Shown: positions 6,805 to 61,784 of the stretch, piece by piece | Numbering within the stretch: position 1 is the first letter of the stretch | Layout: each line of letters starts with the position of its first letter | NCBI GenBank assembly: GCA_040757695.1 | Contig: JBFLWK010000001.1 | Span: forward strand, 89,758-153,757 | DNA from: Elusimicrobiota bacterium | GTDB lineage: Bacteria > Elusimicrobiota > UBA8919 | DNA length: 64,000 nt | Direction of reading: 5' to 3' | Translations under genes and position numbers: made by a program | The notes under the pieces: generated by a model | Told to the model about the DNA's origin: nothing | The model's database searches: none | Seen by the model: only the letters and a program-made list of their open reading frames with translations

Positions 6805-6899
6805 AATAACTTATAACCCATCACTCACATATTGAGATTTTTTATTCATTGTAAGTAATCGGTTATTAGTTATCACATTAACTGCCGGGTGTTCGGGTA

Positions 6900-7514
6900 T
6901 TAAAGCCGAAGGTTGTGGAAACGGTAGTAAAGGCAAGGTGATAAGGTGATAAGGTGATAAGGTGATAAGTAAAAACAAGGAAGTAAAACAACAAAACCTA
7001 AAAGAAGCAAGAATAGTTTTTCAAAAAATTTCTTTAAAACCGTAAATATAACTGCTAAATCTGCAATCTGCAATCTGCAATCTGCAATCTTCAAATAGTG
7101 TTTAGCCACTGTGAATAACTTCTGGAGCAAATTCACAACCAGGATTTGTGAATGAACCGGTGTATTGAATGTCAGTGTGATGAGTGAACTCAAAAAAAGC
7201 GTCCGAAGTCCGAGGCCGGGGATTCGAGACCTGTCATTCTGAGCCGAAGGCGAAGAATCTTGTGTGTTAACACCAGGATTCTTCACTTCGCTGACGCTCC
7301 GTTCAGAATGACAACCTTCTACTCGCAACTCGCTACTCGCTACTTGCTGGTTTTGGGTATCTCTTTCATCCAGACCGCTGTCCCAATTCTTGATTGCCTG
7401 TTTTACTTCATTAGGGCAATTGGGATTGATAGTATTTGCAAAACAAAAAGCACTCGCTAACCCTATTAAGAAAGCGGCAGAAACTATAATAATAATAATT
7501 TCTCGTTTTGACAT
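6900..7514 (-). CDS. Hypothetical small secreted/membrane protein. Only the N-terminal ~60-100 aa look genuine; the 3' part of the ORF runs through SSRs and an inverted-repeat element.
   Basis: N-terminus MSKREIIIIIVSAAFLIGLASAFCFANTINPNCPNEV looks like a signal/TM segment followed by a Cys-containing mature region. The downstream part of the ORF spans the palindromic element at ~7232-7313 and (aatctgc)n / (ggtgataa)n repeats, so the true stop is doubtful. Confidence 0.25.
   Translation of the reverse strand: MSKREIIIIIVSAAFLIGLASAFCFANTINPNCPNEVKQAIKNWDSGLDERDTQNQQVASSELRVEGCHSERSVSEVKNPGVNTQDSSPSAQNDRSRIPGLGLRTLFLSSLITLTFNTPVHSQILVVNLLQKLFTVAKHYLKIADCRLQIADLAVIFTVLKKFFEKLFLLLLGFVVLLPCFYLSPYHLITLSPCLYYRFHNLRL
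7057..7093. repeat. 5× AATCTGC heptanucleotide repeat, with 3× GGTGATAA octamer repeat at 6948-6971, in the 5' region ~150-290 nt upstream of the GT2 gene at 5776-6804
   Basis: ctgcaatctgcaatctgcaatctgcaatct; ggtgataaggtgataaggtgataagg. Confidence 0.8.
7232..7313. repeat. Large imperfect inverted repeat: TGTCATTCTGAGCCGAAGGCGAAGAATC ... GATTCTTCACTTCGCTGACGCTCCGTTCAGAATGACA
   Basis: The two arms share the termini TGTCATTCTGA and GAAGAATC in opposite orientation. A related element is at 40419-40495. Confidence 0.6.
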
Positions 7515-10139: not shown

Positions 10140-10285
10140 TTTTGACTAGATTAACAGGATTTTATTTTTTGCTACTGAATTTCACTGAAATATTTTCAAA
10201 TCTAAATTCTGTGTATTTCTGTGTGATTCTGTGGCTTGTGTATTTCTGTGGCTGTCTTTTTATCCTGTAAATCCTGTCAGAATCT
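10140..10285. promoter_or_regulatory. Second occurrence of the ATCCTGTAAATCCTGTCAGAA motif (plus ttgactagattaacaggatt) in the lysA 5' region
   Basis: ...ctttttatcctgtaaatcctgtcagaatcttttt...; 19/19 identical to the 2262-2280 copy. Confidence 0.5.
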
Positions 10286-10462: not shown

Positions 10463-11341
10463 TCATTCAATATATTTCTGTAAAGCAATTGCAAGTTTTT
10501 TAGAAAGCGTGTTTTCTTCGGTATTTAACAAAACTGCCAGATTTTTTTTAGCTTCTGCGATATTATTCTTTTTTAGATAAGTTAGTGCAACTAAAAAATG
10601 CGCATTCACCGCTGTAAAGTTAGAAATTGCGATATCTGGATTTTTTTTCATATTAATATATCCTTCTAAAATTCGGGAATCAAACGATGTAGTAAAAAAT
10701 GGTTCTGATTCAGCATATTTACCAGTTAAAACATTCAACTGTAAAATACTGTTTTTTATACTATCGGTTGGACATAGTGCCAGCGCCCTTTTGTATAAAT
10801 CAATAGCTTCGTTATCTCGCCCGGTATTTTTATAAATAACCGCAAGCCCGTTTAATGCTTCAATACTGCTGTTATCAAGTTGCAGTACTTTTTTATAGTA
10901 TTCTTCTGCCTTTTCGTATAGCAATTTTTTATAATAAACCGCACCCAGCCCGAGATAAATCCGTATATCTTTTGAGCCGTATTTTAATGCTTTATTATAT
11001 TCAAAAATCGCTTCATTATGCATATCAGCACCGCGATATGCCTCCCCTAATTTTAGAAGGACAACCGGGTTTTTTTTCTTAATTTTTTTGGCATCAGTAT
11101 AAAATGTAATTGCATAACTGTACTCGCCACGCATTAAATACTCATCACCTTTAGAGATATAGAATCTAATTTTTTCTTTTTTTGATTCTGCATATAAAAA
11201 GATGGAAAGATAGAAAGATAGAAAGATGGAAAGATAGAGAGATGGAAAGATAGAAAGATGGAAAGATAGAAAGGAAAATCTATTGCCCAACCACCTAGCC
11301 ATCTTACCATCTATCCATCTATTAGAATAGTATTTTTTCAT
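10463..11341 (-). CDS. TPR-repeat protein with a repeat-encoded hydrophobic N-terminus
   Basis: Several TPR-like segments (AITFYTDAKKI..., LYEKAEEYYKKVLQLD...). The N-terminal FSFLSFHLSIFPSLYLSIFLSFYLSIFLY is encoded by 8-nt tandem repeats (agatRgaa)n at ~11199-11275. Confidence 0.5.
   Translation of the reverse strand: MKKYYSNRWIDGKMARWLGNRFSFLSFHLSIFPSLYLSIFLSFYLSIFLYAESKKEKIRFYISKGDEYLMRGEYSYAITFYTDAKKIKKKNPVVLLKLGEAYRGADMHNEAIFEYNKALKYGSKDIRIYLGLGAVYYKKLLYEKAEEYYKKVLQLDNSSIEALNGLAVIYKNTGRDNEAIDLYKRALALCPTDSIKNSILQLNVLTGKYAESEPFFTTSFDSRILEGYINMKKNPDIAISNFTAVNAHFLVALTYLKKNNIAEAKKNLAVLLNTEENTLSKKLAIALQKYIE
11199..11275. repeat. Tandem octanucleotide repeats (AGATAGAA/AGATGGAA, ~9 units) inside the 5' coding end of the TPR gene
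   Basis: Read directly from the sequence. The unit length is not a multiple of 3 and gives an 8-aa periodic hydrophobic peptide. Confidence 0.8.
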
Positions 11342-12297: not shown

Positions 12298-13593
12298 TTA
12301 TTCAATAATTTTGCCGATACTGGTTTCTAAATTGATTTTTGCGATTATAACATCTTTCAATGCATCAATATATTCAAGTTGGATATTCATCGCTGTCTCT
12401 AACATTTCAATAAACTCAAGATATGTAAGTTCTTTTAATACCTCATCTGTTACAGTTGTAGCAAGTTGTTCTTTTTCGTTAGTTTTTTGTTCAAACTTTT
12501 TAACTGCAAACTCGTAATCAACAAAACATTTTCTTACCTCGGCCTGGATTGAGTCGGTAATACTTGCTCGGTTAATCTGTGTTTTTCTATATTGGTACTT
12601 TTTTTGTTTTATTCGGGCAAACTGACCAAAACCATCAAATATCGGTAGTGTAAAATTTATAGTTGCATTCCACGCTCTTTTTTCAAATGGCAACTGTCTA
12701 TCTTCAAGTTGATAGTTGCCACCGAGTGTAATTATAGGATACCTGCCGGATAATGATAGGTTTACTGAAAGCGCATCCATCTGTTCCTGAAGTTGCGTTT
12801 TTTTAAGTTCAGGCCGATATTCAAGCGCCCAGGCAATGCATTTATTGAGGTCTACCACAGCCTTTTTGTGCTCTAACTCGCCTTTGATTGTGAATATCGT
12901 ATTTAACTCTATCCCGATAGAATCAAGAAAATCAATTTCTGCCAGTTCCAGTTCTTTCTGGTTTTTGGTTTCTGCTGATTTTATTTTTTCAATTTTTTTT
13001 TCAGATATAAATCTGTCTTTAGGGTTTAAAGACTCATTTTTTCTATTTGATATTTTTTCAATAGTTGCTTTATAAATCTCAACTTTTTTCTGGATTGATA
13101 GAAGTGTATAGAAATTTTTTTTAGCCGATGAGCCTGTTTTGTTTTTGATTACCTCGTAATCACTTTCAGCCGATTTCAATTCTGTTTCTGCAAACTTCTT
13201 TGTAGCAGAAATTTTGGCACCACTCCATAATATCTGATAGAGCGAAATTTTGGCTGTATAATAATCTTCAATGTTATCAACCAGTGGCTCAATTTTTTGT
13301 GGCAGGATAGTGTTGCCCAAAATAGGCGAAATCAACAGCGGGCTTTCGGCTTTGAATTTGGAATAGTTGGCGTTGAACTCCAATTGCGGATACATTATTG
13401 ACCGCGCTTCTTTCAGCCGTTGTCTGGCAATCTCTATATCCTGTCGGGCGGATAGAAGTTGCTGGTTGTTTGAAATCGCAAGATTAACACTATCGTCAAC
13501 TGTTAAAACTCTTTCTACAAGTTGCTGGGAATAGAGACAGGTAAAAGGTAAAAGGTAAAAGGTAAAAGGTAAAAGGTAAAAAAATTTTTTCAT
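12298..13593 (-). CDS. TolC-like outer membrane efflux protein (OEP family)
   Basis: Signal peptide, then a TolC-type N-terminus LTVDDSVNLAISNNQQLLSARQDIEIARQRLKEARSIMYPQLEFNANYSK; two-repeat coiled-coil architecture; 431 aa. Confidence 0.65.
   Translation of the reverse strand: MKKFFYLLPFTFYLLPFTCLYSQQLVERVLTVDDSVNLAISNNQQLLSARQDIEIARQRLKEARSIMYPQLEFNANYSKFKAESPLLISPILGNTILPQKIEPLVDNIEDYYTAKISLYQILWSGAKISATKKFAETELKSAESDYEVIKNKTGSSAKKNFYTLLSIQKKVEIYKATIEKISNRKNESLNPKDRFISEKKIEKIKSAETKNQKELELAEIDFLDSIGIELNTIFTIKGELEHKKAVVDLNKCIAWALEYRPELKKTQLQEQMDALSVNLSLSGRYPIITLGGNYQLEDRQLPFEKRAWNATINFTLPIFDGFGQFARIKQKKYQYRKTQINRASITDSIQAEVRKCFVDYEFAVKKFEQKTNEKEQLATTVTDEVLKELTYLEFIEMLETAMNIQLEYIDALKDVIIAKINLETSIGKIIE
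13540..13581. repeat. 6× GGTAAAA heptanucleotide repeat encoding FYLLPFTFYLLPFT in the TolC-like signal peptide
   Basis: Near-identical ~50-nt cassette (acag + 6 units + aaaaattttttCAT) to those at 12226 and 20440. Confidence 0.85.
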
Positions 13594-27363: not shown

Positions 27364-28321
27364 AGCCGTTATCCTGTAAACTAATTTTTTTATTATTAGA
27401 ATCCAGATAGATAATTTTTCTGTTTTTTGTTATTTTGCCGACCTCATAAAATCTTTTGCAAAAATATGATTTTTTAGACGGTGAAACTGTAAAGAGAAGT
27501 TCGTATTCTTCACCACCAAATAAGACAAAGTGTGAAGTGTGGAGTGTGAAGTGTGAAGTAAAAGCATTCAAAGACGTGGAAACAGGAATTTTATCTAAAT
27601 ATATTTCACAGCCAACTTTTGATTCCTGACAGATAAACCGAACCGACTTATCAAATCCGTCGGAAGAATCAATCATTGCTGTAGCGAACCCGCTTTTGGC
27701 AATAAAAAGCCCTTCTTTTACTTTGGGGTAAGGTCGCAGGTGCTTTTTTTTGAGTTCTTCGTAACCTTTAAATTTCTTTTGCAACAAATACAGCCCTGCA
27801 GCAGAATCACCAAAAGTGCCGGTAGTAAAAATTATATCGCCCGGTTTCGCACCACTTCTTAAAATACCAGCGCCATAATTCTGTTTTCCTATAAGTGTGA
27901 TTGAAATTATTATACAAGCAGGAGATTTTACTGTATCACCGCCAATAATATCAACATTGAACTCTGTGGCAAGTTTTTTGAGCCCTTTATAGAGTGCATC
28001 TATACCAGCAACTTTTACAGACGGCGGAAGTCCAACAGTCACAAGACAGTAAAGCGGCACTCCACCCATTGCGGCAATATCAGACAGGTTGACCGATAAC
28101 GCTTTATATCCAATATCAAAAAAACTGTAATACTTCTGGGAAAAATGGATATTTTCTACAAGAGTATCCGTTGTAAAAAGCAGGTTTTCGTTTTTGCTCT
28201 TTATAACAGCACAATCATCACCTATACTTACTATTACATTATCATTATGAGTGCCGCTTGATAGTTTTTTTTTTCTGATTTTTTCAATCAGGCCGAACTC
28301 ACCAAGTTGGGTTATTTTCAA
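27347..28321 (-). CDS. thiL: Thiamine-monophosphate kinase
   Basis: MKITQLGEFGLIEKI...SIGDDCAVIK...TTDTLVENIHF, the AIR-synthase-related ThiL N-terminus. Confidence 0.8.
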   Translation of the reverse strand: MKITQLGEFGLIEKIRKKKLSSGTHNDNVIVSIGDDCAVIKSKNENLLFTTDTLVENIHFSQKYYSFFDIGYKALSVNLSDIAAMGGVPLYCLVTVGLPPSVKVAGIDALYKGLKKLATEFNVDIIGGDTVKSPACIIISITLIGKQNYGAGILRSGAKPGDIIFTTGTFGDSAAGLYLLQKKFKGYEELKKKHLRPYPKVKEGLFIAKSGFATAMIDSSDGFDKSVRFICQESKVGCEIYLDKIPVSTSLNAFTSHFTLHTSHFVLFGGEEYELLFTVSPSKKSYFCKRFYEVGKITKNRKIIYLDSNNKKISLQDNGYDHFK

Positions 28322-43022: not shown

Positions 43023-43706
43023 TTACCTTACGATTTTGGTTTTTACATTACCAATAATAGAAACTGTTTCTTTGTCAACTGCAAGCACGATTTTGTCACC
43101 GGAGTACTCTGAAACACCATCGGCATCAGTTCTGACTATTTTTGGTGGACCGCCTAAAAGTAAAATTTCGTTTGTTTTATGGTCGTAAAATGCTTCCTTA
43201 CTGAATGCTTCTGTTTCCGATTGAGAAATTTTAACATTTTGGATTGCATGGAACCGGTCGCCGAACTCAAAAATCTCTAATTCTTCACATTTTAATTCAA
43301 TAACATCTGTTGTGTTCTGGCTTAATGTTCTTTTTACTTTTACATTCTTTTTCAAAATACCCTGTCCGTTATTTTTGTTATATTCTGCTTCATCACCCCA
43401 GGAATATGTAACGGATGTGCCACTGGAATAACAGATATAGATATTTCCGGTGCCTGAAATCACACTTGTTTTTTCGTTTGATTTCATTTTATCCGCAGAG
43501 ATTGTAAGGTTCTGCTGTGTAAATTTTACATTCCCAATAAATTCAAGAATCTCGCCTTTAGATAGTATCTTCATCTGGTCACCGGTGATTGTTGCCTGTT
43601 CACCAGCATAGAGGCAGTAAATAAGTGAATAAGTGAGTAAGTGAATAAGTGAAAGACACATAACCACATAACCACTTAACCACTCAACCACTTTATTTAT
43701 CTTCAT
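43023..43706 (-). CDS. LptA/OstA-like periplasmic LPS-transport protein
   Basis: Beta-jellyroll OstA-type repeats (ITGDQMKILSKGEILEFIGNVKFTQQNLTISADKM...); adjacent to lptC-like; signal peptide encoded by octamer repeats. Confidence 0.5.
   Translation of the reverse strand: MKINKVVEWLSGYVVMCLSLIHLLTYSLIYCLYAGEQATITGDQMKILSKGEILEFIGNVKFTQQNLTISADKMKSNEKTSVISGTGNIYICYSSGTSVTYSWGDEAEYNKNNGQGILKKNVKVKRTLSQNTTDVIELKCEELEIFEFGDRFHAIQNVKISQSETEAFSKEAFYDHKTNEILLLGGPPKIVRTDADGVSEYSGDKIVLAVDKETVSIIGNVKTKIVR
43621..43692. repeat. Two blocks of 8-nt tandem repeats (AAGTGAAT ×4; CATAACCA ×4) encoding the signal peptide of the LptA-like gene
   Basis: ataagtgaataagtgagtaagtgaataagtgaaagacacataaccacataaccacttaaccactcaaccac. 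Confidence 0.8.
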
Positions 43707-44344
43707 TTTTTTATTACTTTGACATTTTTTAAAATTGTTATATCTGATAGGTCAGCATTCGCTTCTAAACCGATACCTGTAATCGTCACATCCTGTTTTT
43801 CCTGACGGATAGGGCTATCAGATAAGACCTTGCCAGTTTTTTCAGAATAGTTTATTGATTCTGTAAAAATTGTTGTCGCTCTTGATAACGAAAAAATTAC
43901 AACATTCCCGGAAGCCTGAATATCGCCTGTTTTTGTCTGCATTCCCGCATTATCCGCTGTGATGATAGACGATATTTTTTTATTGTTTTCGTAAAAAGTC
44001 ATTTTTATTTTTTTTGTATTGATACTATTTCTTTTTTCGTATATATCACCTCTATCAGCGACAAAATTCCATTTTTGGTTTTCAAGTTCATATTTATCTA
44101 TTGAAAAATTTTTTACAACCTGGTCAGGAAACGAATCGTTTATAACAATTTTTTCAACTTTTCTACTACACGAAAATTGCATAACCACAGTGACAGCGAG
44201 CCACAGCGAAAAAAATACGTCAACAAGATAACCTGAACAGGTTCGGGACCCCAGAACTGAAATTCTACGACACTTCAGTGTCGGTTCTGATTCAGTTTTT
44301 ATTTTTGTGTATCTGTGGTATAATACTTTATAACTTTGCCCCAT
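43703..44344 (-). CDS. LptC-like membrane-anchored LPS export protein
   Basis: N-terminal TM, then an LptC-type beta-jellyroll segment (…FYENNKKISSIITADNAGMQTKTGDIQASGNVVIFS…); position upstream of lptA-like and next to kdsC. Confidence 0.5.
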   Translation of the reverse strand: MGQSYKVLYHRYTKIKTESEPTLKCRRISVLGSRTCSGYLVDVFFSLWLAVTVVMQFSCSRKVEKIVINDSFPDQVVKNFSIDKYELENQKWNFVADRGDIYEKRNSINTKKIKMTFYENNKKISSIITADNAGMQTKTGDIQASGNVVIFSLSRATTIFTESINYSEKTGKVLSDSPIRQEKQDVTITGIGLEANADLSDITILKNVKVIKK

Positions 44345-47236: not shown

Positions 47237-47980
47237 TCAAATTATTTCAATATATTTTTTTTCTACCCAGCCACGAACACCGAGTGATTTTACGCCTATC
47301 TCTAACCACTCGCCCCCCTCGCCTGATGTTCCTAACAGTATCACCTTTTTACCTTCCGGCACGGTAAAGTTAACCTTGAAATTAGTATCAGGTCCTGACC
47401 TAACCTCAGCGGTATTGATAACAACTGCTTCCTGCCGGGCTTGTTGACGGTATTTTATCAAATAGAGTGCTGAAAAGAAACCAAAAAATAAAACTGATAC
47501 AACAACCAGCCAAAACATTTTTTTAAACGGATAAACAAATTTTATAGAAATAACAACTACAAAACTAAACAACGAAATCGCAAATAATAATCTTAACCTG
47601 TTTATATTAAACCTTGAAATCAGTGATTGCTCGTAATCCGGGTCTTTTATCAGTTGTGCAATAAACTTTATGTTATAATTAACATCGTCATCCGCTGGCG
47701 AAATTTTTCTTGCTTTTTCATAATAGACCATTGCTAAACCAATTCTACCCAGTCGGAAATAGGTGTTGCCAAGATTATAAAAAAGGTTTGTAGACGGATA
47801 CGATTTTTCAATTATTAAAAACTGTTCAAGTGCTTTTTCATAGTTGCTCTTTTTGTAAAACTCGCAGCCGGTAGAAAAAATTTCAGTTTCTGAAACAGCA
47901 TAGAGGTGATTGCAGATTGCAGATTGCAGATTGCAGATTAAAAACAACAAAAAAATTTGTAATTTTTTCATATTTCCCAT
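47237..47980 (-). CDS. batE: BatE-like TPR + bacterial SH3 domain protein
   Basis: TPR units; C-terminal SH3b (VINTAEVRSGPDTNFKV...GEWLEI...RGWVEKKYIE); signal peptide encoded by (GATTGCA)n. Confidence 0.55.
   Translation of the reverse strand: MGNMKKLQIFLLFLICNLQSAICNHLYAVSETEIFSTGCEFYKKSNYEKALEQFLIIEKSYPSTNLFYNLGNTYFRLGRIGLAMVYYEKARKISPADDDVNYNIKFIAQLIKDPDYEQSLISRFNINRLRLLFAISLFSFVVVISIKFVYPFKKMFWLVVVSVLFFGFFSALYLIKYRQQARQEAVVINTAEVRSGPDTNFKVNFTVPEGKKVILLGTSGEGGEWLEIGVKSLGVRGWVEKKYIEII
47907..47940. repeat. 4.5× GATTGCA heptanucleotide repeat (coding strand CTGCAAT) encoding LQSAICNLQSAICN in the batE-like signal peptide
   Basis: tgattgcagattgcagattgcagattgcagatta. The same unit (aatctgc) is repeated at 7057-7093. 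Confidence 0.85.
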
Positions 47981-49812
47981 TCTTTTTCAATCTCGGAAAT
48001 AATACTTTTTATTTTTTTTATCTCGGTTGCCAAATTAACATTTTTGTCTACCGAGGGTGCAAATCTCATAAAATCAGCATTTTCAAGTAGTTCTCTAATT
48101 TTTTTTATAGCCGTTACAGCAAGATTTTTTTGTGCTAATACATTTTCAATCTCGCTAAAAGTAAAGCCTGACAGATTACTACTCGTTTTATCAGAAAGAT
48201 ATTCTACGACTGAATCAAATACAGTCCCGTAAAATTCTTTAACATCAATAGTATGTTTAATTTTATTTATGTTTTTTTCAAACTTTTTAAAAGCCTTTTT
48301 ACTTCTAATAAACTCGTAATTTTTAGAAACAAAAAATCTGTATCTGTTATATCCTAATCTACCAAAAAAAACCAACACCGAACAAACAAGCAATACATCT
48401 GCGATAATTTTTTCAGATTTCCAACTGATATTTTTGTCCAATTCAGTTTTTATAAACCTTATATCCTGACCGACAATATTGATACCGGAAGCAATCACAG
48501 GCAGGGTTGGGACTGCTGATATTTTAGACGGTAAAACTTTCAGATTAACTACTGGTGTTTTTAGTTTCTGGTATTCTTTTTTTTCAGGATTAAAATACGA
48601 AAAAACAACCTCCGGGATTATCAGATTACCAGCCCGGTCGGGAACGAGTACTGTCTTAAACACTTTAGAGCCGGTAACTTTATAGTTGGCTTTTGATATA
48701 TTAACTGACGAAATCGTATCATATTTTCTTACACCGATAATACTGGGAAATTGCGGCTCCGGAATTGATTTTATATTACCTTCACCTGAAATTGTAACAG
48801 TTAGCGTCACAGGATTGTTTGCTTCTATTTCTTTTTTGTCAACAGAAGCGCTGATATTATAAGCGCCTACAGCACCTGAAAAATCGGCTGGTTTATTTTC
48901 AGTCGGCAATGGTAGAACCTCAACAGATAGCGGTTTTGACTGAACAACGACAGATTTGCCACCACCAAAAAACCCTCTAAAAAAATCATCATCAAAAAAA
49001 CCGCTAAACGGGTCTCGTGTAAAATCCTGAACACTCGCTTTTAAGGACGCCGAGCCAAGCGCATATTTTCCGCTGGTAGTTGGGAACAATTTTGTTTTTA
49101 TCTCAATAACATTGTATCTTTTACCGTTAATAATTGTTTGATAATTTCGTTGTGGTGGTAAATCTTCAACAATAAAACCGGTGAAATTAGGCGGATTATA
49201 TTCCGGATTTGAAAACAGATTTCGTGAAGTAAAAAATCTGAATGTATAGGTTATTCCTTCATTAACAAAACATTTTCTTTTGTCCAATTCGGCTGTTACA
49301 AAAAGTCCTTGTGCTTTTTCATCATCAAGTTTGAATTGTTGAGTATCAACAGGTTTCTGCGATTGTCCGCTTAACACTTCAATATTTATTGGGTTAGTTG
49401 TATAATCTTTTCCACTGACGGTCAATTTTACAGGTCCGATTGCGAATTTCCCAGCACGATTCGGTGAGAGGATAAAATTATATGTTATAGATGCCGATAC
49501 TCTGCCATTAACAAACGAGATATTTTGTGAAGTGCCTGATGAATAAACATTAAAATCGGCTAACGGCGGAAGTTCAGGTTTAGGGATATTTGCAACATCG
49601 CCGGCGACGGTGACCTGCAGAGTAATTGATTCGCCGAAATTAACCGTGTTTCTGTCAACAGTTGCCTGGATATTTATATCCGCATAAAGGCAAGACAGAA
49701 GTAAGAAGCAAGAAGTAAGAAGTAAGAAGACAGAAGACAGATGAAAGATGACAGATGAAAGACTCTGACTTCTGACTTCTGACCTCTGATTTCTGACTTC
49801 TGATTTTTTCAT
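47968..49812 (-). CDS. batD: BatD-like oxygen-tolerance protein (signal peptide, large periplasmic region, C-terminal TM helix)
   Basis: Size and architecture, plus its position in the batA-E operon; N-terminus built from heptamer repeats. Confidence 0.6.
   Translation of the reverse strand: MKKSEVRNQRSEVRSQSLSSVIFHLSSVFLLLTSCFLLLSCLYADINIQATVDRNTVNFGESITLQVTVAGDVANIPKPELPPLADFNVYSSGTSQNISFVNGRVSASITYNFILSPNRAGKFAIGPVKLTVSGKDYTTNPINIEVLSGQSQKPVDTQQFKLDDEKAQGLFVTAELDKRKCFVNEGITYTFRFFTSRNLFSNPEYNPPNFTGFIVEDLPPQRNYQTIINGKRYNVIEIKTKLFPTTSGKYALGSASLKASVQDFTRDPFSGFFDDDFFRGFFGGGKSVVVQSKPLSVEVLPLPTENKPADFSGAVGAYNISASVDKKEIEANNPVTLTVTISGEGNIKSIPEPQFPSIIGVRKYDTISSVNISKANYKVTGSKVFKTVLVPDRAGNLIIPEVVFSYFNPEKKEYQKLKTPVVNLKVLPSKISAVPTLPVIASGINIVGQDIRFIKTELDKNISWKSEKIIADVLLVCSVLVFFGRLGYNRYRFFVSKNYEFIRSKKAFKKFEKNINKIKHTIDVKEFYGTVFDSVVEYLSDKTSSNLSGFTFSEIENVLAQKNLAVTAIKKIRELLENADFMRFAPSVDKNVNLATEIKKIKSIISEIEKEWEI
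49693..49810. repeat. ~118 nt of consecutive heptanucleotide repeat blocks (GAAGTAA/GAAGACA/GATGAAA/TCTGACT types) encoding the first ~40 residues of the BatD-like protein
   Basis: gaagtaagaagcaagaagtaagaagtaagaagacagaagacagatgaaagatgacagatgaaagactctgacttctgacttctgacctctgatttctgacttctg. The protein shows matching 7-aa periodicity (SEVRNQRSEVRSQS; LLLTSCFLLLSC). Confidence 0.8.
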
Positions 49813-50493
49813 CTACCAATCCTTTTCGGGCATTCCAAACACTGGCATTTTTACATTCGCTTTTTCTTTAGGTCTCTTTTCTTCACCTGCTGATTCAAGC
49901 AGTCGTTTAGCATCCTCTTTTGACATTTTCTGTTGTTTATCTTCGCTTTTTTCTTTATCTTGCTCTTCCTTTTTTTTGTTTTCTTGTTCCTTTGTTTTTT
50001 TGTCTTCTTTTTTCGCCTGCTGTTTCAACTTTTTGTCAATATTCTCTTTCAATTTCTTCTGGACAAATTCTATATTGAATTTTGCATCGCTATCGTCGGG
50101 ATAAAGTTCCAGCGCCTTTTTATAAAGTTGTATGGCTTCAGGCAGCTTCCCTAATCTGAATAATGTATTACCTATATTGTAGTATGCTTTTGCCTGTAAT
50201 TTAATATCTTTTGAATATGTTGCCTTTTCATAATTTTTTAGTGCATCTTCATATGCACCTGTTTTGTAATAGACATTACCAAGATTAAACATTGTTTCTG
50301 GTAAATCGGGCTTTTCGGTTTCTGCCTGTTTGTATTTTTCAAGTGCAGTATCATATTTTTCCTTTTTGAATGCAATGTTGCCTTTACCTAAATTACTTCT
50401 CACAGATGGATACAGACCTGTTGAGAAAACCAACATAAACAACCATAGATTCACTCCGAATAGGAATTTTTCTCTGAATACCACAGATTTCAT
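49813..50493 (-). CDS. batC: BatC-like TPR protein with a Lys/Glu-rich C-terminal region
   Basis: N-terminal TM helix, three TPRs, KKEDKKTKEQENKKKEEQDKEKSEDK low-complexity tail. Confidence 0.5.
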   Translation of the reverse strand: MKSVVFREKFLFGVNLWLFMLVFSTGLYPSVRSNLGKGNIAFKKEKYDTALEKYKQAETEKPDLPETMFNLGNVYYKTGAYEDALKNYEKATYSKDIKLQAKAYYNIGNTLFRLGKLPEAIQLYKKALELYPDDSDAKFNIEFVQKKLKENIDKKLKQQAKKEDKKTKEQENKKKEEQDKEKSEDKQQKMSKEDAKRLLESAGEEKRPKEKANVKMPVFGMPEKDW

Positions 50494-50496
50494 ATA

Positions 50497-51507
50497 CTAA
50501 ACTCTTTTCTTGAACCCGTCGGGTAAAAAGAGTTCAACCAATAAAAGAAACAGTCCTATAGCTACAAAATAATAAAATTTGTCTTCATAACGTTCGAACT
50601 TCTGTGCTTTAAGTTGTTTTGTCTCCATATCTGAAATATCGTCTGCTATCCGCGTAACCTCTATCTCACCATCAGTTGCCTGATAATACTTGCCATCGGT
50701 TTGATATGCAATTTTTTGTAAAGCTGCTTCATCTAATTTTGTCATTATCGTTTCACCTTTTTTATTTTTTCTATAACCAACAACATTCCCTGTTTCATCC
50801 CGTTCAGGTATTAACTCGCCACGAGTTGTTCCAAATCCGATTGTAAAAATTTTTATACCTTCTTTTTTTGCTGCTAATGCAGAAGCCACAGGGTCGCTTT
50901 CGTGGTCTTCACCATCGGTTAGAATTACAAGTGCTTTATATTTCCGTTCTTCTTTTACAAAATTTTTTACTGCTAAATCTATCGCTTCGCCAATTGCGGT
51001 ACCCGGAACAGGAATAAGTTCAGTGGTTAGCGAGTTCATAAAAATTTTACAACTTGCTGTATCAAGTGTTAACGGACACTGTAAAAACGGTTTCCCTGCA
51101 AACGCAATAATACCAAGCCGATTGCCTGAAAGTTTATCAATAAGTGAGCGAAGTTCCAGTTTCGCTTTTTCAAGTCGGTTAGGTTGAATATCATTAGCAA
51201 GCATACTTTTTGAAACATCAATTGCAATTATTACATCCACACCGTATTTTTTTATCTTAACAAGTTTTGCACCAAATTTTGGACCTGTAAGCGCAAATAG
51301 TAGAAAAAATAAGCCAATAACTTTTAGAACTTTTTTTAACTCAATTATTCTGGAATCGTATCTTACAAAAAGCTTCTGGATATTTTCTGTAGAAAAAAGT
51401 TCCCTTAAAAATATCCGTTTGTTTTTTTCAGAGGTATATTCTAAAATTATGACTACTGGAATAATAAGAATTAGAAAATAAACAAAAACTGTTGCTGCAA
51501 ATTCCAT
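50497..51507 (-). CDS. batB: BatB: membrane-anchored von Willebrand factor A domain protein
   Basis: TM helices, then a VWA MIDAS-type motif IDVSKSM...; C-terminal TM. Confidence 0.8.
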   Translation of the reverse strand: MEFAATVFVYFLILIIPVVIILEYTSEKNKRIFLRELFSTENIQKLFVRYDSRIIELKKVLKVIGLFFLLFALTGPKFGAKLVKIKKYGVDVIIAIDVSKSMLANDIQPNRLEKAKLELRSLIDKLSGNRLGIIAFAGKPFLQCPLTLDTASCKIFMNSLTTELIPVPGTAIGEAIDLAVKNFVKEERKYKALVILTDGEDHESDPVASALAAKKEGIKIFTIGFGTTRGELIPERDETGNVVGYRKNKKGETIMTKLDEAALQKIAYQTDGKYYQATDGEIEVTRIADDISDMETKQLKAQKFERYEDKFYYFVAIGLFLLLVELFLPDGFKKRV

Positions 51508-51523
51508 AATTTTTTAGGAAAAG

Positions 51524-52507
51524 TTATGGCACTGTTTTATAAACCAAATTTCTTAAGATAATTTCTAACAGAAAAAGTATTACAGCAGAAATAAGAAACC
51601 ATCTGTAGAGCTCGTTGAAATCGGTATATTCTTCAACCTTGAATTCTGTCTTTTCCATAGTATCAATTTTTTTGTAAATTTCTTCTAACGATGATTTATC
51701 TTTTGCTCTGAAATACAAGCCACTGGTTTCATTTGCGATTTGTAAAAGTGTTGGCTCATCAAGATCTTCTTTAAGCCAGTGATATCTTCTGCCAAAAACA
51801 GGGTCATCTACAGGATATGGTGATGCACCAATCCCAGCTGCACCTATTGTATAAATTTTTATCCCGAATGATGATGCAGCACGGGCTGCGGTAATCGGAT
51901 CCACTTCGCCCATGTTATTTCTACCATCGGTAAGTAGAATTACAATTTTGCTTTTTGATGGTATTTCTTTTAAGCGGTTAATAGCGGTCAAAATTGCAGT
52001 CCCAATTGCAGTCCCATCTGTCTGTGTCATACCAATTTCTATTTTATCAATAAAATCCAAAACAGAACCGTAGTCGGTTGTTAATGGACATTGCGTAAAT
52101 GCAACTGCAGAAAAAACAACAACACCTATTCGGTCGTTTTTTCTACTTTTAATAAATTTTTTGACAACCTCTTTTGCCGCATCCAGCCGGTTTTGTGGCT
52201 TAAAATCTTCTGCTCGCATAGAAGTTGAGGTATCAATACACAGCATTATATCAATCCCCTTTTTTGTTAATTCTGCCGACTTCTCGCCACCTTGAGGTCG
52301 CGCAAGTGCAAATATCGTCAGAATCAGTGCAACAACTTTCAAGTTATCAACGACTTTTTTGCCAAATGGTATTTTTTGAGTTGCAAAAACTTTTATATCG
52401 GAAAAAATAATTCCTGAATCGTTTTTAATTCTTCTTTTTTTAAGATAGAAAACAGTACCGATAAAAACCGGAATTAATAATAAAATATACGGATAATAAA
52501 ACCGCAT
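51524..52507 (-). CDS. batA: BatA: membrane-anchored VWA domain protein
   Basis: CIDTSTSMRAEDFKPQNRLDAAKE VWA MIDAS region; TM helices at both ends. Confidence 0.8.
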   Translation of the reverse strand: MRFYYPYILLLIPVFIGTVFYLKKRRIKNDSGIIFSDIKVFATQKIPFGKKVVDNLKVVALILTIFALARPQGGEKSAELTKKGIDIMLCIDTSTSMRAEDFKPQNRLDAAKEVVKKFIKSRKNDRIGVVVFSAVAFTQCPLTTDYGSVLDFIDKIEIGMTQTDGTAIGTAILTAINRLKEIPSKSKIVILLTDGRNNMGEVDPITAARAASSFGIKIYTIGAAGIGASPYPVDDPVFGRRYHWLKEDLDEPTLLQIANETSGLYFRAKDKSSLEEIYKKIDTMEKTEFKVEEYTDFNELYRWFLISAVILFLLEIILRNLVYKTVP

Positions 52508-52518
52508 AATTTTTAAAC

Positions 52519-52555
52519 CCTAAACTCTAAACTCTAAACTCTAAACTCTAAACTC
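52519..52555. repeat. 5× TAAACTC heptanucleotide repeat spanning the stop codon of the DUF4381-like gene, ~25 nt upstream of the batA start
   Basis: ctaaactctaaactctaaactctaaactctaaactccc. On the coding strand this is (GAGTTTA)n, encoding ...SLEFRV with stop TAG inside the repeat. Confidence 0.8.
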
Positions 52556-53478
52556 CCTTCTTTTGGTTTTACCATTTCAACTATATTTCTTGCATTTTCA
52601 AAACTTTGGATTATGTCTTTTTCTTCAGGTATATATCTAGCAAATTTTACAAGGTCAGAAAATTCAAAAAACTCACGAAGTATTACTAGAAATTTTTTGT
52701 CCACAGATTTTTCACGAAGTGCTTTTATTGATTCAGAAGTGGTCATATCTATAATATTCACTAAAAATATCTTCGATAAATAAATCCGAACAATTTGTGT
52801 CAGCCGAAAATAAAATTCTTTCACCAGCCCTCTTTTTATCAAATCCGTTTTTTCCAGTTTTGCGAGTTCATCAGTCGCATACAAGTACGGGTCTACTATT
52901 TCATCAATAATTTGTGCAAAATTCTTTTTCTGTAATTGATACTTATAAATAAAATAACACAGCAAAACTAATATCGGGATACCTGCAACAAGAATATAAA
53001 AAACAGGGTGGTGCTTCAAGTTCACAGGCGGTTTGATGTCTTTTATATCAGCCGCACTTTCTTTATCCAGCAAACTCGTAACTTCTATCCTGATGGGATT
53101 CGTCTGGCTCTGTGCTGGTTTGCCGTCTTGCGTGATAAAATCTATAATGAACGGTTTTATCTCGTAAATCCCGGTTGTGAATGTAGCAAGAATATACTCA
53201 TATTTTTTTTTATATCGCCCGAATAACAGATATTTTTTTCTTTCTTTTGTAATTTTGTAATCTTTGATTTCAAAACTTTTAAGATTTTGTTCTGGTGTAA
53301 AGGAACTAATTTTTACGCCATCTGTATATTCTAGAATAAGCGTCAGTTTTACCTTATCGCCAATTGTTATTTTCTTTTTGTCAGTATAACCTAAAATATA
53401 GACATTGGATAAAAGTGGTTGCACAAAACAACCAATGAAAAATATCCAAGACGATAATCTGCGTAATCTATAATTCAT
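52534..53478 (-). CDS. DUF4381-like membrane protein of the Bat/MoxR operon
   Basis: Signal/TM at the N-terminus plus a central TM (VFYILVAGIPILVLLCYFI); operon position between DUF58 and batA. Confidence 0.4.
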   Translation of the reverse strand: MNYRLRRLSSWIFFIGCFVQPLLSNVYILGYTDKKKITIGDKVKLTLILEYTDGVKISSFTPEQNLKSFEIKDYKITKERKKYLLFGRYKKKYEYILATFTTGIYEIKPFIIDFITQDGKPAQSQTNPIRIEVTSLLDKESAADIKDIKPPVNLKHHPVFYILVAGIPILVLLCYFIYKYQLQKKNFAQIIDEIVDPYLYATDELAKLEKTDLIKRGLVKEFYFRLTQIVRIYLSKIFLVNIIDMTTSESIKALREKSVDKKFLVILREFFEFSDLVKFARYIPEEKDIIQSFENARNIVEMVKPKEGSLEFRV

Positions 53479-58208: not shown

Positions 58209-58311
58209 AGATTTTCATAGATAAAAATCTTTTTAACGAAGATACGAATAAAATCTAAATTCCGTGTTTCCGTGCTTTTGCGGTAATATATTCTGCGGCC
58301 ATCTGCGTCAT

Positions 58312-60817: not shown

Positions 60818-61784
60818 GTTTTATATCTAATACATAACACGGGAAATCCTCGGGTAGTCGGACAACATCTTTTGAAGTAGTAATCACAAATGCTTGAAAT
60901 TCTGCAGCATCCGAGTATAATTTTTTTATATCTTTATCTCTGAAAAAATAGTGGTCAGGAAATTTTTTATGAACCAGAAGATTTACTCCAAGTTCTTTAA
61001 GCGTTTTTTCAAAATCTTCAGGCACTGCAATCCCTGAAACAGCAATCGCATTTTGATTTTTAAGTATTACTGAATTTATTTCAGAACCGTTTTTATTAAA
61101 AATTTTTTTGTTGAAAGATGCATGAAAAATCGGTGCGGACTTGTTATGTTTTCGGATAACATCTTCTATTTTTGAAATACTTGTATTCGCTACCTTGTCA
61201 CATCTTGTAACAACGAATGCCGAAGCACGATTTATATTTTTAACCGGCTCCCTTAAATAACCTGATGGTAAAAGCAAATTGTTCCCGAATGGATTCAATG
61301 CATTTATACAGACAATATCAATATCCCTGAAAAGATTTAAGTGCTGGAACCCATCGTCTAAAATTATAGTATCAATACCAAATTTTTCAATTGCAAACAA
61401 GCCAGTTTTATATCTGTTTTTACCTATAATCACAGGGACGTTATTGAGCAATTTCGCGATAAGATACGGTTCATCACTGGCAATTTTAGGTCCTAAAAAT
61501 ACTTTCTTCCCATCACTTACTACATTTGTATTTTGTAATTTATAATTTGTAATTTGTCTTTTATATCCTCTTGAAATTACACAAACCTTTTTGTTCAATT
61601 TCTTCAACAATTCTGCTAAAAAAATCACAGTCGGCGTTTTACCCGTGCCACCGACTGTAATATTGCCAACCGATATAACCTTACAATGCAGTTTTTTTTG
61701 TTTTATTTTTTTTAACTTTTGTGAGATATTAAAAACTACCAGATATAGAAATGATAGCGGATATAAAATTTTTAATGGTTTCAT
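60753..61784 (-). CDS. lpxK: Tetraacyldisaccharide 4'-kinase
   Basis: P-loop ISVGNITVGGTGKTP; 343 aa. Confidence 0.8.
   Translation of the reverse strand: MKPLKILYPLSFLYLVVFNISQKLKKIKQKKLHCKVISVGNITVGGTGKTPTVIFLAELLKKLNKKVCVISRGYKRQITNYKLQNTNVVSDGKKVFLGPKIASDEPYLIAKLLNNVPVIIGKNRYKTGLFAIEKFGIDTIILDDGFQHLNLFRDIDIVCINALNPFGNNLLLPSGYLREPVKNINRASAFVVTRCDKVANTSISKIEDVIRKHNKSAPIFHASFNKKIFNKNGSEINSVILKNQNAIAVSGIAVPEDFEKTLKELGVNLLVHKKFPDHYFFRDKDIKKLYSDAAEFQAFVITTSKDVVRLPEDFPCYVLDIKLEIHQKDEFKKFLENEIAKKN

What the first reader, a model, noticed from the sequence alone, without database searches (positions are those of the whole stretch)
47907..49810. The Bat operon members batE-like and batD-like both start with heptamer-repeat-encoded N-termini
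batE-like carries (CTGCAAT)4.5, giving LQSAICNLQSAICN. batD-like begins with about 118 nt of consecutive different heptamer blocks, giving SEVRNQRSEVRSQS...LLLTSCFLLLSC. The same AATCTGC unit recurs upstream of the GT2 gene at 7057. Two adjacent genes of an oxygen-tolerance operon both look switchable.
Basis: seen in the sequence. Interest (0 to 1): 0.55.

Follow-up and report, generated by a model that had tools for sequence, protein, structure and literature searches.

The report
Signal peptides built from heptamer repeats
The 7-base repeats at the starts of batD and batE are real and encode the proteins' export signals. They belong to a genome-wide habit of this Elusimicrobiota bacterium, and nothing shows they act as dedicated on/off switches for the Bat operon.

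Summary
batE (47237-47971, - strand) carries a perfect (AATCTGC)x4.6 array. batD (47968-49812, -) opens with 112 nt of imperfect heptamer blocks. Both arrays lie inside the predicted Sec signal peptides, just before a conserved LYA cleavage motif.

They are not special to the Bat operon. In this 64-kb window, perfect tandem arrays of at least 3 copies occur almost only at period 7 (six arrays) or 8 (one). Ten of 18 period-7/8 arrays sit in the first 150 nt of seven envelope genes: LptA, TolC, patatin, two TPR proteins, BatD and BatE. Others lie in loops of LpxK, ThiL and a GT2 enzyme, or between genes.

batD's two blocks are inverted complements. The purine-rich arm encodes the charged n-region and the pyrimidine-rich arm encodes the hydrophobic h-region. 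Together they fold into a -42 kcal/mol hairpin.

BatD orthologues at about 60% identity have either plain signal peptides or arrays of different units. All six BatE orthologues examined are plain.

Most likely this is lineage-wide 7-8-nt slippage, retained where proteins tolerate it. A change of one or two units would truncate either protein, so switching is mechanically possible. No polymorphism data exist for this genome. The degenerate batD arrays, and similar arrays in essential genes, argue against a selected switch.

The parts
47968..49812 (-). batD-like CDS (614 aa). Its ATG at 49810-49812 directly follows the batC stop TAG at 49813-49815.
   Evidence: Pfam BatD PF13584, E 4.6e-47. 100% identical to NCBI MEW6555793.1, a BatD family protein from an Elusimicrobiota MAG.
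49764..49803 (-). Purine-rich heptamer array (coding-strand unit TCAGAAG/AGTCAGA, 5.7 copies, 87%). It encodes the charged n-region SEVRNQRSEVRSQ.
   Evidence: TRF; translation. The cyclic peptide of the unit, SEVRSQK, has mean Kyte-Doolittle hydropathy -1.83, the 14th percentile of stop-free heptamers.
49692..49762 (-). Pyrimidine-rich heptamer mosaic (units CTTCTGT, CTTCTTA, CATCTGT, CATCTTT; 10.1 copies, 84%). It encodes the h-region LSSVIFHLSSVFLLLTSCFLLLS.
   Evidence: TRF. The units rank in the 87th-97th hydrophobicity percentile. The best 10-aa hydropathy window is 2.66, at residues 30-39.
49699..49806 (.). Inverted-repeat relation between the two batD arrays: 43-nt arms at 49699-49741 and 49764-49806, 77% Watson-Crick complementary. 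They form a long periodic hairpin.
   Evidence: the repeat finder pair I1. RNA fold of 49685-49825(-): -42.2 kcal/mol, z = -3.57, 0 of 200 shuffles as stable.
49681..49692 (-). TGCCTTTATGCG = C-L-Y-A, the c-region and predicted signal-peptidase site of BatD. Mature BatD starts at DINIQATVDRN.
   Evidence: The LYA|(D/E)(I/V)N motif aligns across orthologues with and without repeats.
47237..47971 (-). batE-like CDS (244 aa; TPR + SH3_3). Its ATG at 47969-47971 overlaps the batD TGA stop (ATGA).
   Evidence: Pfam TPR_1 and SH3_3. NCBI MEW6555792.1 uses the same start. Sequence.
47908..47939 (-). Perfect heptamer array (AATCTGC)x4.6 on the coding strand. It encodes ICNLQSAICN between the h-region core (IFLLFL) and the HLYA cleavage motif (47897-47908).
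   Evidence: TRF 100% matches. Absent from the six BatE orthologues examined.
52514..52555 (-). A third array in the same operon: (GAGTTTA)x6, 97%. It contains the stop codon of the LB_053-like gene and fills the spacer before the batA start at 52507.
   Evidence: TRF; sequence. The unit carries a stop that is reached in every reading frame of the array.
7058..7094 (+). (AATCTGC)x5.3 array on the + strand, i.e. GCAGATT on the gene strand. It is antisense to the batE array and lies 253 nt upstream of the gene at 5776-6804.
13539..13581 (-). Perfect (TTTACCT)x6.1 array encoding FYLLPFTFYLLPFT in the TolC-family signal peptide. Identical 43-nt arrays lie at 20439-20481 (TPR protein) and 12225-12267 (patatin, 94%).
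43616..43693 (-). Two inverted octamer arrays (GTTAAGTG x4.6, then TATTCACT x4.8) that build the LptA signal peptide.
   Evidence: RNA fold -31 kcal/mol, z = -3.53.
11194..11321 (-). Inverted octamer arrays (AGATGGTT-type, then CTTTCTAT x10) that build the N-terminus of a TPR protein (10463-11341).
   Evidence: RNA fold -38.3 kcal/mol, z = -4.73.
61524..61557 (-). Heptamer array (TACAAAT x4.9) inside the LpxK CDS (60753-61784). It encodes a loop 5 aa longer than in the Aquifex LpxK structure.
27528..27559 (-). Heptamer array (CACACTT x4.6) inside the ThiL CDS. It encodes FTSHFTLHTSHF in place of an equally long segment of a solved homologue.

Best explanation
The batD and batE repeats are the local products of a lineage-wide mutational habit. 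In this Elusimicrobiota clade, 7- and 8-nt units expand into short tandem arrays and are sometimes duplicated in inverted orientation. The arrays survive wherever the encoded sequence is tolerated. Signal-peptide-coding 5' ends are the main sink, because a signal peptide needs only a positively charged n-region, a stop-free hydrophobic h-region and an intact cleavage site.

Since 7 and 8 are coprime with 3, an array is read in all three frames in turn. Only stop-free units survive in a CDS. Only hydrophobic (pyrimidine-rich) units survive in an h-region.

In batD, a purine-rich array encodes the n-region. Its inverted, pyrimidine-rich complement encodes the h-region, and the ancestral LYA cleavage site is kept. 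In batE, a young, perfect array has replaced the distal half of the signal peptide. The arrays therefore now function as (parts of) Sec signal peptides.

What is shown and what is inferred:
- Shown: the anatomy, the genome-wide distribution, the turnover among orthologues, and the frame logic.
- Inferred: slippage as the generating process; tolerance, and not selected switching, as the reason the arrays persist; and actual export.
- The arrays remain frameshift-prone (one or two units gives a truncated protein, three units gives a 7-aa change in signal-peptide length). I regard that as a side effect and a mutational hazard, not as the selected function.
For: (1) Period specificity. There are 6 perfect arrays of at least 3 copies at period 7 and 1 at period 8, none at periods 5, 6 or 9-12, and 0.00 expected.

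(2) Location. Ten of 18 period-7/8 arrays (7 of 15 loci) lie in the first 150 nt of CDSs, which make up 13% of the window (P = 2e-5 and 1.6e-3). The seven genes are envelope housekeeping genes: LptA, TolC, patatin, two TPR proteins, BatD and BatE.

(3) Other arrays sit in loops of cytoplasmic enzymes (LpxK, ThiL, GT2) or at gene ends and in spacers. The process is therefore not gene-class specific.

(4) The filter is visible. The h-region units rank in the 75th-97th hydrophobicity percentile of stop-free units, and the n-region unit in the 14th. Most units at gene ends and in spacers carry a stop, and internal-loop units are intermediate.

(5) Turnover. BatD orthologues at 54-64% identity have either plain 18-25-aa signal peptides (P0002-4, P0010, P0013, L010) or arrays of unrelated units:
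- CTATTCT in L002-6;
- a 15-mer plus TCTATTC in L007;
- the octamer CTTATCAG in L008;
- TATTTAC in L148.
All end in the same LYA|(D/E) site. LptA shows the same pattern. BatE orthologues are all plain.

(6) Array density is a genome-level trait: 1.8-2.8 per 10 kb in the window, L002, L007, L008 and L149, against 0.46 in L010.

(7) Slippage is real in the lineage.
- One 15-nt unit is lost in frame in the batD of some Crystal Geyser assemblies.
- One 10-nt unit is gained in an intergenic array.
- A 5-FTHF cyclo-ligase gene is split at a perfect (AACCGAA)x4.3 array.

(8) Over-representation of heptameric repeats in many bacteria is already on record, attributed to how DNA polymerase slips (PMC4692102, citing Mrazek 2007).
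Against: - The three (TTTACCT) arrays have exactly the same 43-nt length. Independent slippage does not predict that.
- Inverted array pairs with z = -3.5 to -5 are not explained by simple slippage. They need an extra mechanism (fold-back template switching) or selection for the hairpin.
- If tolerance alone mattered, periods of 6, 9 and 12 would be even better tolerated in CDSs, yet they are rare. The bias therefore has to be mutational, which is assumed here and not shown.
- Export of the array-built signal peptides was judged only by inspection and hydropathy, not with a trained predictor or an experiment.
Confidence: 0.55

Rival explanations
1. Genuine contingency loci. The batE array, and possibly the batD array, are maintained by selection as slipped-strand ON/OFF switches, as with the CTCTT repeats in the signal-peptide region of Neisseria opa genes. 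Subpopulations would then differ in Bat-complex composition. The other signal-peptide arrays would make much of the envelope proteome phase-variable.
For: - The unit length is not divisible by 3, and the arrays sit at the 5' ends of CDSs.
- One or two units more or fewer gives 24-56-aa stubs.
- The batE array is perfect.
- Periods 7 and 8 dominate over the frame-neutral periods 6 and 9.
- A frameshift at a heptamer array exists in a related MAG.
- The ATGA and TAGATG gene junctions mean an OFF state in batD would also reduce coupled translation of batE.
Against: - There are only 4.6 copies in batE, and the batD arrays are 84-87% mosaics.
- Equivalent arrays lie in LptA, TolC, LpxK and ThiL, where OFF states should be lethal or costly.
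- All seven array-bearing 5' CDSs are in the ON frame.
- The batE array is absent from all six orthologues examined.
- The Crystal Geyser batD heptamer array is invariant in every contig read for the cluster. Only in-frame variants were seen, with the caveat that these contigs were found through the intact protein.
- No polymorphism data exist for this genome.
Confidence: 0.2
2. The functional unit is the nucleic-acid hairpin, not the peptide. The inverted arrays form a stable stem just downstream of the start codon. That stem would make batD translation depend on ribosomes arriving from batC, or would act as an mRNA stability, processing or temperature-sensing element. Translation through it yields a usable signal peptide as a by-product.
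For: - batD 5' fold: -42.2 kcal/mol, z = -3.57, and the outer stem includes the batC stop and batD start region.
- The same architecture occurs in LptA (z = -3.53) and a TPR gene (z = -4.73).
- It also occurs in the L007 batD orthologue, built from different sequence (-45 kcal/mol, z = -5.16), and in intergenic array pairs of L002 (-49.7 kcal/mol, z = -5.05).
Against: - The hairpin is not conserved: L008 batD gives z = -0.14, L002 only -2.0, and L010 has no arrays.
- batE and the two perfect TTTACCT arrays that were folded have no partner arm and do not fold (z = -1.26, +0.89 and +0.60).
- Rfam finds no known RNA family anywhere in the window.
Confidence: 0.12
3. The arrays spread as short signal-peptide cassettes by recombination or gene conversion between the 5' ends of exported-protein genes, instead of growing in place. 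Under this reading batE acquired its array from another locus, such as the one at 7058-7094.
For: - The three TTTACCT arrays have identical 43-nt length and share a TG(Y)CT(Y)(Y)AT 3' flank.
- The AATCTGC unit occurs twice in the window.
- One contig in a relative joins another locus to batD inside the purine-rich array.
Against: - Homology between the three TTTACCT loci stops at the array plus the cleavage motif.
- The second AATCTGC copy is in the opposite orientation.
- (TTTACCT) arrays of at least 4 copies occur in more than 120 loci across many phyla, mostly outside ORFs. The same unit can therefore arise repeatedly.
- The set of SP-compatible units is small: 163-290 of 2340 heptamer classes reach a mean hydropathy of 1.5 or 1.0. 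Convergence is therefore plausible.
Confidence: 0.08

Closest known systems
Neisseria opa genes: CTCTT pentamer repeats in the signal-peptide-coding region (slipped-strand phase variation). From general knowledge; related SSR switches are reviewed in PMC2651432 and PMC3711429.
   Same: A tandem repeat whose unit is not a multiple of 3 lies inside the signal-peptide-coding part of an exported protein. Unit gain or loss shifts the frame of the mature protein.
   Different: - Here the units are 7-8 nt and there are only 4-10 copies, often degenerate.
- The arrays are spread over housekeeping envelope and cytoplasmic genes of an uncultured (MAG-only) bacterium.
- Some come as inverted pairs.
- No ON/OFF polymorphism has been demonstrated.
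Heptameric SSR over-representation in bacteria: cyanobacterial STRR heptamers, Xanthomonas GGGAATC and Nostoc GGGGA(C/T)T arrays (PMC4692102, citing Mrazek 2007).
   Same: - There is a strong excess of period-7 tandem arrays over other periods.
- Arrays vary between close relatives.
- Some occur as inverted pairs.
- A polymerase-slippage bias has been proposed as the cause.
   Different: Those arrays are described as intergenic and G-rich (G-quadruplex-forming). Here more than half lie inside CDSs, are AT- and pyrimidine-rich on the coding strand, and are translated as signal peptides.
Haemophilus influenzae hmw1A/hmw2A 7-bp repeats (PMC8262952, PMC2424069).
   Same: Heptanucleotide tandem repeats associated with genes for envelope or surface proteins.
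   Different: The hmw repeats lie upstream of the coding region and grade expression level. They are long arrays with documented in-host variation.
Rickettsia palindromic elements, palindromic repeats inserted in frame into protein-coding genes (from general knowledge; not checked here).
   Same: Hairpin-forming repetitive DNA is tolerated inside ORFs and translated as extra peptide segments at permissive sites.
   Different: RPEs are a dispersed family with a conserved 100-150-nt sequence. Here each locus has its own short unit, and the elements are tandem arrays.
Borg tandem repeats that create intrinsically disordered protein regions (PMC9879509).
   Same: Pervasive, recently formed perfect tandem repeats arise independently in genes and intergenic regions and add new peptide segments.
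   Different: Borg genic repeats keep the reading frame and encode disordered, polar regions. Here the units are 7-8 nt and encode hydrophobic signal-peptide cores.

Membership tests
Bat (Bacteroides aerotolerance-type) operon | The gene set MoxR AAA+ ATPase, DUF58, VWA BatA, VWA BatB, TPR BatC, BatD and TPR/SH3 BatE, in one orientation. | tested here: met
   - Pfam: AAA_3, DUF58, VWA (twice), TPR, BatD (E 4.6e-47), TPR+SH3_3.
- NCBIfam: BatA, BatB and BatC models are hit below their curated cut-offs.
- The same gene order is seen in L002 and L008.
Bat (Bacteroides aerotolerance-type) operon | A role in oxygen tolerance. | not testable with these tools
   The name comes from Bacteroides fragilis genetics (general knowledge). 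Nothing here bears on function in Elusimicrobiota.
SSR-mediated phase-variable (contingency) locus | A tandem repeat with a unit not divisible by 3 inside the CDS (or in the promoter), so that a unit change alters expression. | tested here: met
   Arrays at codons 12-21 of batE and codons 4-41 of batD. One or two units more or fewer gives 24-56-aa products.
SSR-mediated phase-variable (contingency) locus | Observed unit-number polymorphism within or between populations that produces ON and OFF alleles. | tested here: inconclusive
   - No reads, and no relative at 90% identity or more, are available for this genome.
- The Logan contig breaks inside the perfect arrays, which is probably an assembly-graph effect of a perfect repeat about as long as the assembler's word size, so it is uninformative.
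- In the Crystal Geyser relative the heptamer array is constant and only an in-frame 15-nt unit varies.
- One frameshift at a heptamer array is seen in a different gene of L149.
SSR-mediated phase-variable (contingency) locus | Long, uninterrupted arrays that give high mutability. | tested here: not met
   batE has 4.6 perfect copies (32 nt). The batD arrays are 84-87% mosaics of several units.
SSR-mediated phase-variable (contingency) locus | Restriction to dispensable, environment-facing genes. | tested here: not met
   The same type of array is found in LptA, TolC, LpxK and ThiL.
Sec-type (SPase I) signal peptide | A positively charged n-region, a hydrophobic h-region of about 10 aa or more, and a small residue at -1 before the mature protein. 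| tested here: met
   - By inspection and hydropathy only.
- BatD: net charge +3, best 10-aa hydropathy 2.66, L at -3 and A at -1.
- BatE: net charge +2, best 10-aa hydropathy 2.88, L at -3 and A at -1.
- The cleavage motif aligns with orthologues that have plain signal peptides.
- No trained predictor was available.
Heptameric SSR excess / STRR-like repeats | Period-7 tandem arrays strongly over-represented relative to other periods. | tested here: met
   Six perfect arrays at period 7 against 0 at periods 5, 6 and 9-12, with 0.00 expected. Relatives carry 1.8-2.8 arrays per 10 kb.
Heptameric SSR excess / STRR-like repeats | Mainly intergenic location. | tested here: not met
   Thirteen of 18 arrays lie inside CDSs: ten in 5' ends and three internal.
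Dispersed palindromic element inserted in CDS (RPE-like) | A conserved element sequence shared by the copies. | tested here: not met
   Units differ from locus to locus and between orthologues. Only TTTACCT (3 loci) and AATCTGC (2 loci) recur.

The most novel reading that the evidence does not exclude
Inverted 7-8-nt tandem arrays act as a de novo generator of signal peptides in this Elusimicrobiota clade. Complementary codons tend to encode residues of opposite hydropathy, so a hairpin whose 5' arm is purine-rich automatically encodes a charged n-region followed by a hydrophobic h-region. Such elements would repeatedly overwrite ancestral signal peptides of envelope proteins. At the same time they would provide an mRNA stem at the start of the gene and a slippage-prone tract, making export of much of the envelope proteome, including BatD and BatE, tunable or switchable at the population level.
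Probability: 0.12. Interest if true: 0.8.

Novelty: new variant of a known kind. Interest (0 to 1): 0.45.

Why it matters
If the ordinary reading holds, this is a clear natural example of how a lineage-specific mutational bias (7-8-nt slippage) reshapes proteins where constraint is lowest. It also shows that signal peptides can be replaced wholesale by repeat-derived sequence while the cleavage site is kept. That matters for gene annotation: gene callers can start such genes downstream of the array, and word-based assemblers break contigs at the perfect arrays. It also matters for ideas on how signal peptides originate.

If the arrays do switch, an uncultured, non-pathogenic lineage would have contingency loci across housekeeping envelope genes. 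That would be unexpected.

For the Bat operon itself, the repeats say nothing specific about oxygen tolerance.

Tried and rejected
- **Rfam scan of the whole window:** no family reached its gathering score, so no known RNA explains the arrays or the 6805-7775 region.
- **Strain-level comparison for this genome:**
  - Every window protein looked up sits alone in its 90%-identity cluster.
  - The metagenome scan with BatD returned one 59% relative that lacks the N-terminus, plus hits at about 25% identity.
  - The only other assembly (Logan SRR29635779) is identical and ends inside the perfect arrays at 47911 and 52549. This is probably an assembly-graph effect of a perfect repeat about as long as the assembler's word size, and not evidence of polymorphism.
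- **Idea that (TTTACCT)n is a clade-specific signal-peptide cassette:** rejected. At least 4 copies occur in more than 120 loci across many phyla, mostly outside ORFs. About 16 of 125 passed an automated ORF screen for a 5'-CDS position, and only a few of these, such as L029, L058 and L086, have a clearly signal-peptide-like N-terminus.
- **Protein-level periodicity screen of 120 BatD homologues:** too insensitive, because 4-copy arrays encode only about 10 aa.
- **Idea that the periodic mismatch in the batD hairpin is forced by stop-codon avoidance:** dropped. A perfect complement of TCAGAAG (CTTCTGA) does carry TGA, but the alternative pair ACAGAAG/CTTCTGT would be stop-free on both arms.
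- **Trans-antisense pairing between the 7058-7094 array and the batE mRNA:** noted but not pursued. There is no evidence that the 6805-7775 region is transcribed as an RNA.
- **Literature searches:** they found heptamer-repeat and phase-variation papers, but none describing signal peptides encoded by heptamer arrays. The library is incomplete, so this is not proof of novelty.


Full report
**1. What is there**

All genes in the region lie on the - strand. Pfam and NCBIfam confirm a Bat-type operon:

| Gene | Coordinates |
|---|---|
| MoxR ATPase | 54426-55415 |
| DUF58 | 53475-54368 |
| LB_053-like small BatD-domain protein | 52534-53478 |
| BatA | 51524-52507 |
| BatB | 50497-51507 |
| BatC (TPR) | 49813-50493 |
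| BatD | 47968-49812 |
| BatE-like (TPR+SH3) | 47237-47971 |

The BatD protein is 100% identical to a BatD-family protein annotated on a 155-kb contig of an Elusimicrobiota MAG.

The batC stop (TAG) is immediately followed by the batD ATG. The batD TGA overlaps the batE ATG as ATGA. The three genes are therefore arranged for translational coupling.

**2.

Tandem Repeats Finder reports three arrays:
- 47908-47939: period 7, 4.6 copies, 100% matches.
- 49764-49803: period 7, 5.7 copies, 87%.
- 49692-49762: period 7, 10.1 copies, 84%.

The translated N-termini are:
- BatD: MKKSEVRNQRSEVRSQSLSSVIFHLSSVFLLLTSCFLLLSCLYA|DINIQATVDRN.
- BatE: MKKLQIFLLFLICNLQSAICNHLYA|VSE.

No other in-frame start codon precedes the mature BatD domain, so the repeats are translated.

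There are two small corrections. The batE array encodes ICNLQSAICN. The AATCTGC array at 7058-7094 lies on the opposite strand from the batE array.

An independent Logan assembly is identical over 47911-52549.

**3. It is a genome-wide feature, not a Bat feature**

Perfect arrays of at least 3 copies exist in the window only at period 7 (six), period 8 (one) and period 4 (one). None occur at periods 5, 6 or 9-12. Simulated sequence gives 0.00 at period 7 or 8.

The 18 period-7/8 arrays with at least 3.5 copies are placed as follows:

| Location | Arrays | Detail |
|---|---|---|
| First 150 nt of a CDS | 10 | Seven genes; P = 2e-5 by array, 1.6e-3 by locus |
| Inside cytoplasmic enzyme CDSs | 3 | LpxK, ThiL, a GT2 |
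| Gene ends or short spacers | 3 | Includes (GAGTTTA)x6 between the LB_053-like gene and batA |
| The roughly 1-kb region 6805-7775 | 3 | No protein-family hit |

The seven genes with 5' arrays are a TPR protein, a patatin-like phospholipase, a TolC-family protein, a large TPR protein, LptA, BatE and BatD. In each, the array lies in a signal-peptide-like N-terminus. In six of the seven it is followed by a C/H-L-Y/H-A/S motif (CLYA, CLYS, CLHS or HLYA).

**4. Anatomy and coding logic**

Because 7 and 8 are coprime with 3, an array is read in all three frames in turn and encodes a cyclic 7- or 8-residue peptide. This makes the selective filter visible:
- h-region units (TTTACCT, CTTCTGT, CTTCTTA, CTATTCT, CTTTCTAT and others) are stop-free and fall in the 75th-97th hydrophobicity percentile.
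- The batD n-region unit TCAGAAG encodes SEVRSQK (14th percentile).
- Most units at gene ends and in spacers contain a stop.
- Units in enzyme loops are intermediate.

The two batD blocks are inverted complements. The arms are 43 nt and 77% complementary. They fold into a periodic hairpin of -42.2 kcal/mol (z = -3.57).

The LptA and TPR-protein array pairs behave the same way (z = -3.53 and -4.73). batE and the TTTACCT arrays are single and unstructured.

So in batD the purine-rich arm supplies the charged n-region and the complementary pyrimidine-rich arm supplies the hydrophobic core.

By simple hydropathy and charge, the array-built peptides resemble the plain signal peptides of orthologues.

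**5. Relatives**

BatD orthologues at 54-64% identity fall into two groups.
- Plain signal peptides of 18-25 aa: P0002-4, P0010, P0013 and L010.
- Repeat-built signal peptides with unrelated units:

| Locus | Array units |
|---|---|
| L002-6 (Crystal Geyser MAG) | a 15-mer plus CTATTCT x4.3 |
| L007 | a 15-mer x3.1 plus TCTATTC |
| L008 | octamers GATGATAT and CTTATCAG |
| L148 | TATTTAC x4.7 |

All of them keep the same LYA|(D/E) junction.

LptA shows the same pattern: an octamer TCTTACTC x4 in L008 and a plain signal peptide in L010. BatE orthologues in L002, L007, L008, L010, L148 and L149 are all plain. The perfect batE array therefore looks recent.

Array density is a property of the genome. 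It is 1.8-2.8 per 10 kb in the window, L002, L007, L008 and L149, against 0.46 in L010.

The hairpin is present in L007 (z = -5.16), weak in L002 (z = -2.0) and absent in L008 (z = -0.14).

**6. Is it a switch?**

Mechanically it could be. A change of one or two units gives 24-56-aa stubs. A change of three units changes the signal peptide by 7 aa. Unit changes do occur in this lineage:
- One 15-nt unit is missing, in frame, from batD in some Crystal Geyser assemblies.
- One 10-nt unit is gained in an intergenic array.
- In L149 a 5-formyltetrahydrofolate cyclo-ligase gene is split exactly at a perfect (AACCGAA)x4.3 array and would be restored by +1 or -2 units.

Several points argue against a selected switch:
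- The Crystal Geyser batD heptamer array is identical in every contig read for the cluster. The caveat is that these contigs were found through the intact protein.
- All seven array-bearing genes in the window are in frame.
- The batD arrays are degenerate.
- Arrays of the same type sit in LptA, TolC, LpxK and ThiL.
- For this genome itself, no polymorphism test was possible.

**7. Interpretation**

The best-supported reading (confidence about 0.55) has four parts:
- A lineage-wide bias generates 7-8-nt tandem arrays, and sometimes inverted copies of them.
- Purifying selection removes those that introduce stops or unsuitable residues.
- Signal-peptide regions are the most permissive coding sink.
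- There the arrays have replaced ancestral n- and h-regions while the cleavage site was retained.

The excess of heptameric repeats in many bacteria, and its attribution to how DNA polymerase slips, is in the literature (PMC4692102, citing Mrazek 2007). The searches run here found no description of arrays that encode signal peptides.

The rival readings are:
- a true contingency switch (0.2);
- a functional mRNA or DNA hairpin (0.12);
- spread as recombining cassettes (0.08).

Two features remain unexplained under the main reading:
- The three TTTACCT arrays have an identical 43-nt length.
- Inverted array pairs are frequent.

**8. Comparison with known systems**

The closest analogy in mechanism is the CTCTT repeat in the signal-peptide region of Neisseria opa genes. 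The closest analogy in kind is the heptamer-repeat excess of cyanobacteria and Xanthomonas.

The finding fails two defining features of contingency loci that were tested here (long uninterrupted arrays, and restriction to dispensable surface genes). It also fails the intergenic location of STRR-type repeats.

I therefore file it as a new variant of a known kind: short tandem arrays that are translated as signal peptides.

**9. Verdict**

"Switchable" is mechanically possible but unproven, and it is not the most likely reason the repeats are there. The wider pattern of repeat-built signal peptides and inverted arrays encoding n- and h-regions is the more interesting result. Read-level and genome-wide follow-up is needed.

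Noticed in passing
window 52514-52555: A third array in the Bat operon: (GAGTTTA)x6, 97% matches. It contains the stop codon of the LB_053-like gene and fills the 26-nt spacer before the batA start. The unit carries TAG, which is reached in every frame of the array. The Crystal Geyser orthologue has no such spacer, because the two genes overlap there.
   Followed up: partly
window 60753-61784 (array 61524-61557); 27347-28321 (array 27528-27559); 61818-62570 (array 62260-62292): Heptamer arrays lie inside the CDSs of cytoplasmic enzymes. In LpxK the array makes a loop 5 aa longer than in Aquifex LpxK (4EHW). In ThiL it replaces an equally long segment (compared with 1VQV). In a GT2 it encodes SVISHRSSVIS.
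   Followed up: partly
window 6805-7775: About 1 kb without any protein-family hit. It holds three arrays (GCGAGTA x4.3, GCAGATT x5.3 and ATCACCTT x4.4 on the gene strand) and a roughly 90-nt palindromic element near 7230-7320. A 204-aa ORF (6900-7514) spans all three arrays and the palindrome. The GCAGATT array is the exact antisense of the batE array.
   Followed up: partly
window 27304-27317, 27330-27343, 37267-37280, 58030-58043, 58047-58060: Five exact copies of the palindrome CGAACATTTGTTCG (0.02 expected), four of them as two tandem pairs. From memory the sequence matches the CGAAC-N4-GTTCG LexA/SOS-box (Cheo box) consensus, which suggests a regulon in this window.
   Followed up: no
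L149 3337-3908 (GCA_043816185.1): The 5-formyltetrahydrofolate cyclo-ligase gene is split into two ORFs exactly at a perfect (AACCGAA)x4.3 array. Adding one unit or removing two restores a single ORF that reads through into the downstream 5-FTHF cyclo-ligase ORF.
   Followed up: yes
L002 3979-4060 and 15951-16011; L002 2803-2829 compared with L003/L005: Intergenic inverted heptamer arrays (GGAAGTG x4, TTTTG, ACTACTC x4). One fold gives -49.7 kcal/mol (z = -5.05), and one pair sits next to a tRNA-like sequence. A nearby 10-nt array (TTCTGTGAAA) has one extra unit in two of the three Crystal Geyser assemblies that span it.
   Followed up: partly
L026 1-283: One ENA contig joins an unrelated upstream sequence (it looked like an smpB 3' end, not verified) to batD inside the purine-rich 15-mer array. 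This is either an assembly chimera or a rearrangement at a shared repeat.
   Followed up: no
window 43703-44344: The LptC-like protein has an N-terminal insertion of about 35 aa (VLYHRYTKIKTESEPTLKCRRISVLGSRTCSGYLVD...) relative to the orthologues in L008 and L010. The inserted DNA looked self-complementary by eye.
   Followed up: no
window 953-1040; 58292-58330; 59083-59101; 10205-10233: Arrays of 10-20-nt period built around a TCTGCG/TCTGTG core. Those at 953-1040 form an inverted pair. They resemble repeat-derived peptide motifs seen in hypothetical proteins of many environmental MAGs (from memory).
   Followed up: no
Logan contigs: L001 ends (window 47911, 52549); L009 start: Logan contigs end inside perfect arrays of 32-43 nt. 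Proteins with perfect arrays in their signal peptides (BatE, TolC, patatin, both TPR proteins) are missing from Logan-derived protein sets, while BatD and LptA, which have imperfect arrays, are present.
   Followed up: partly
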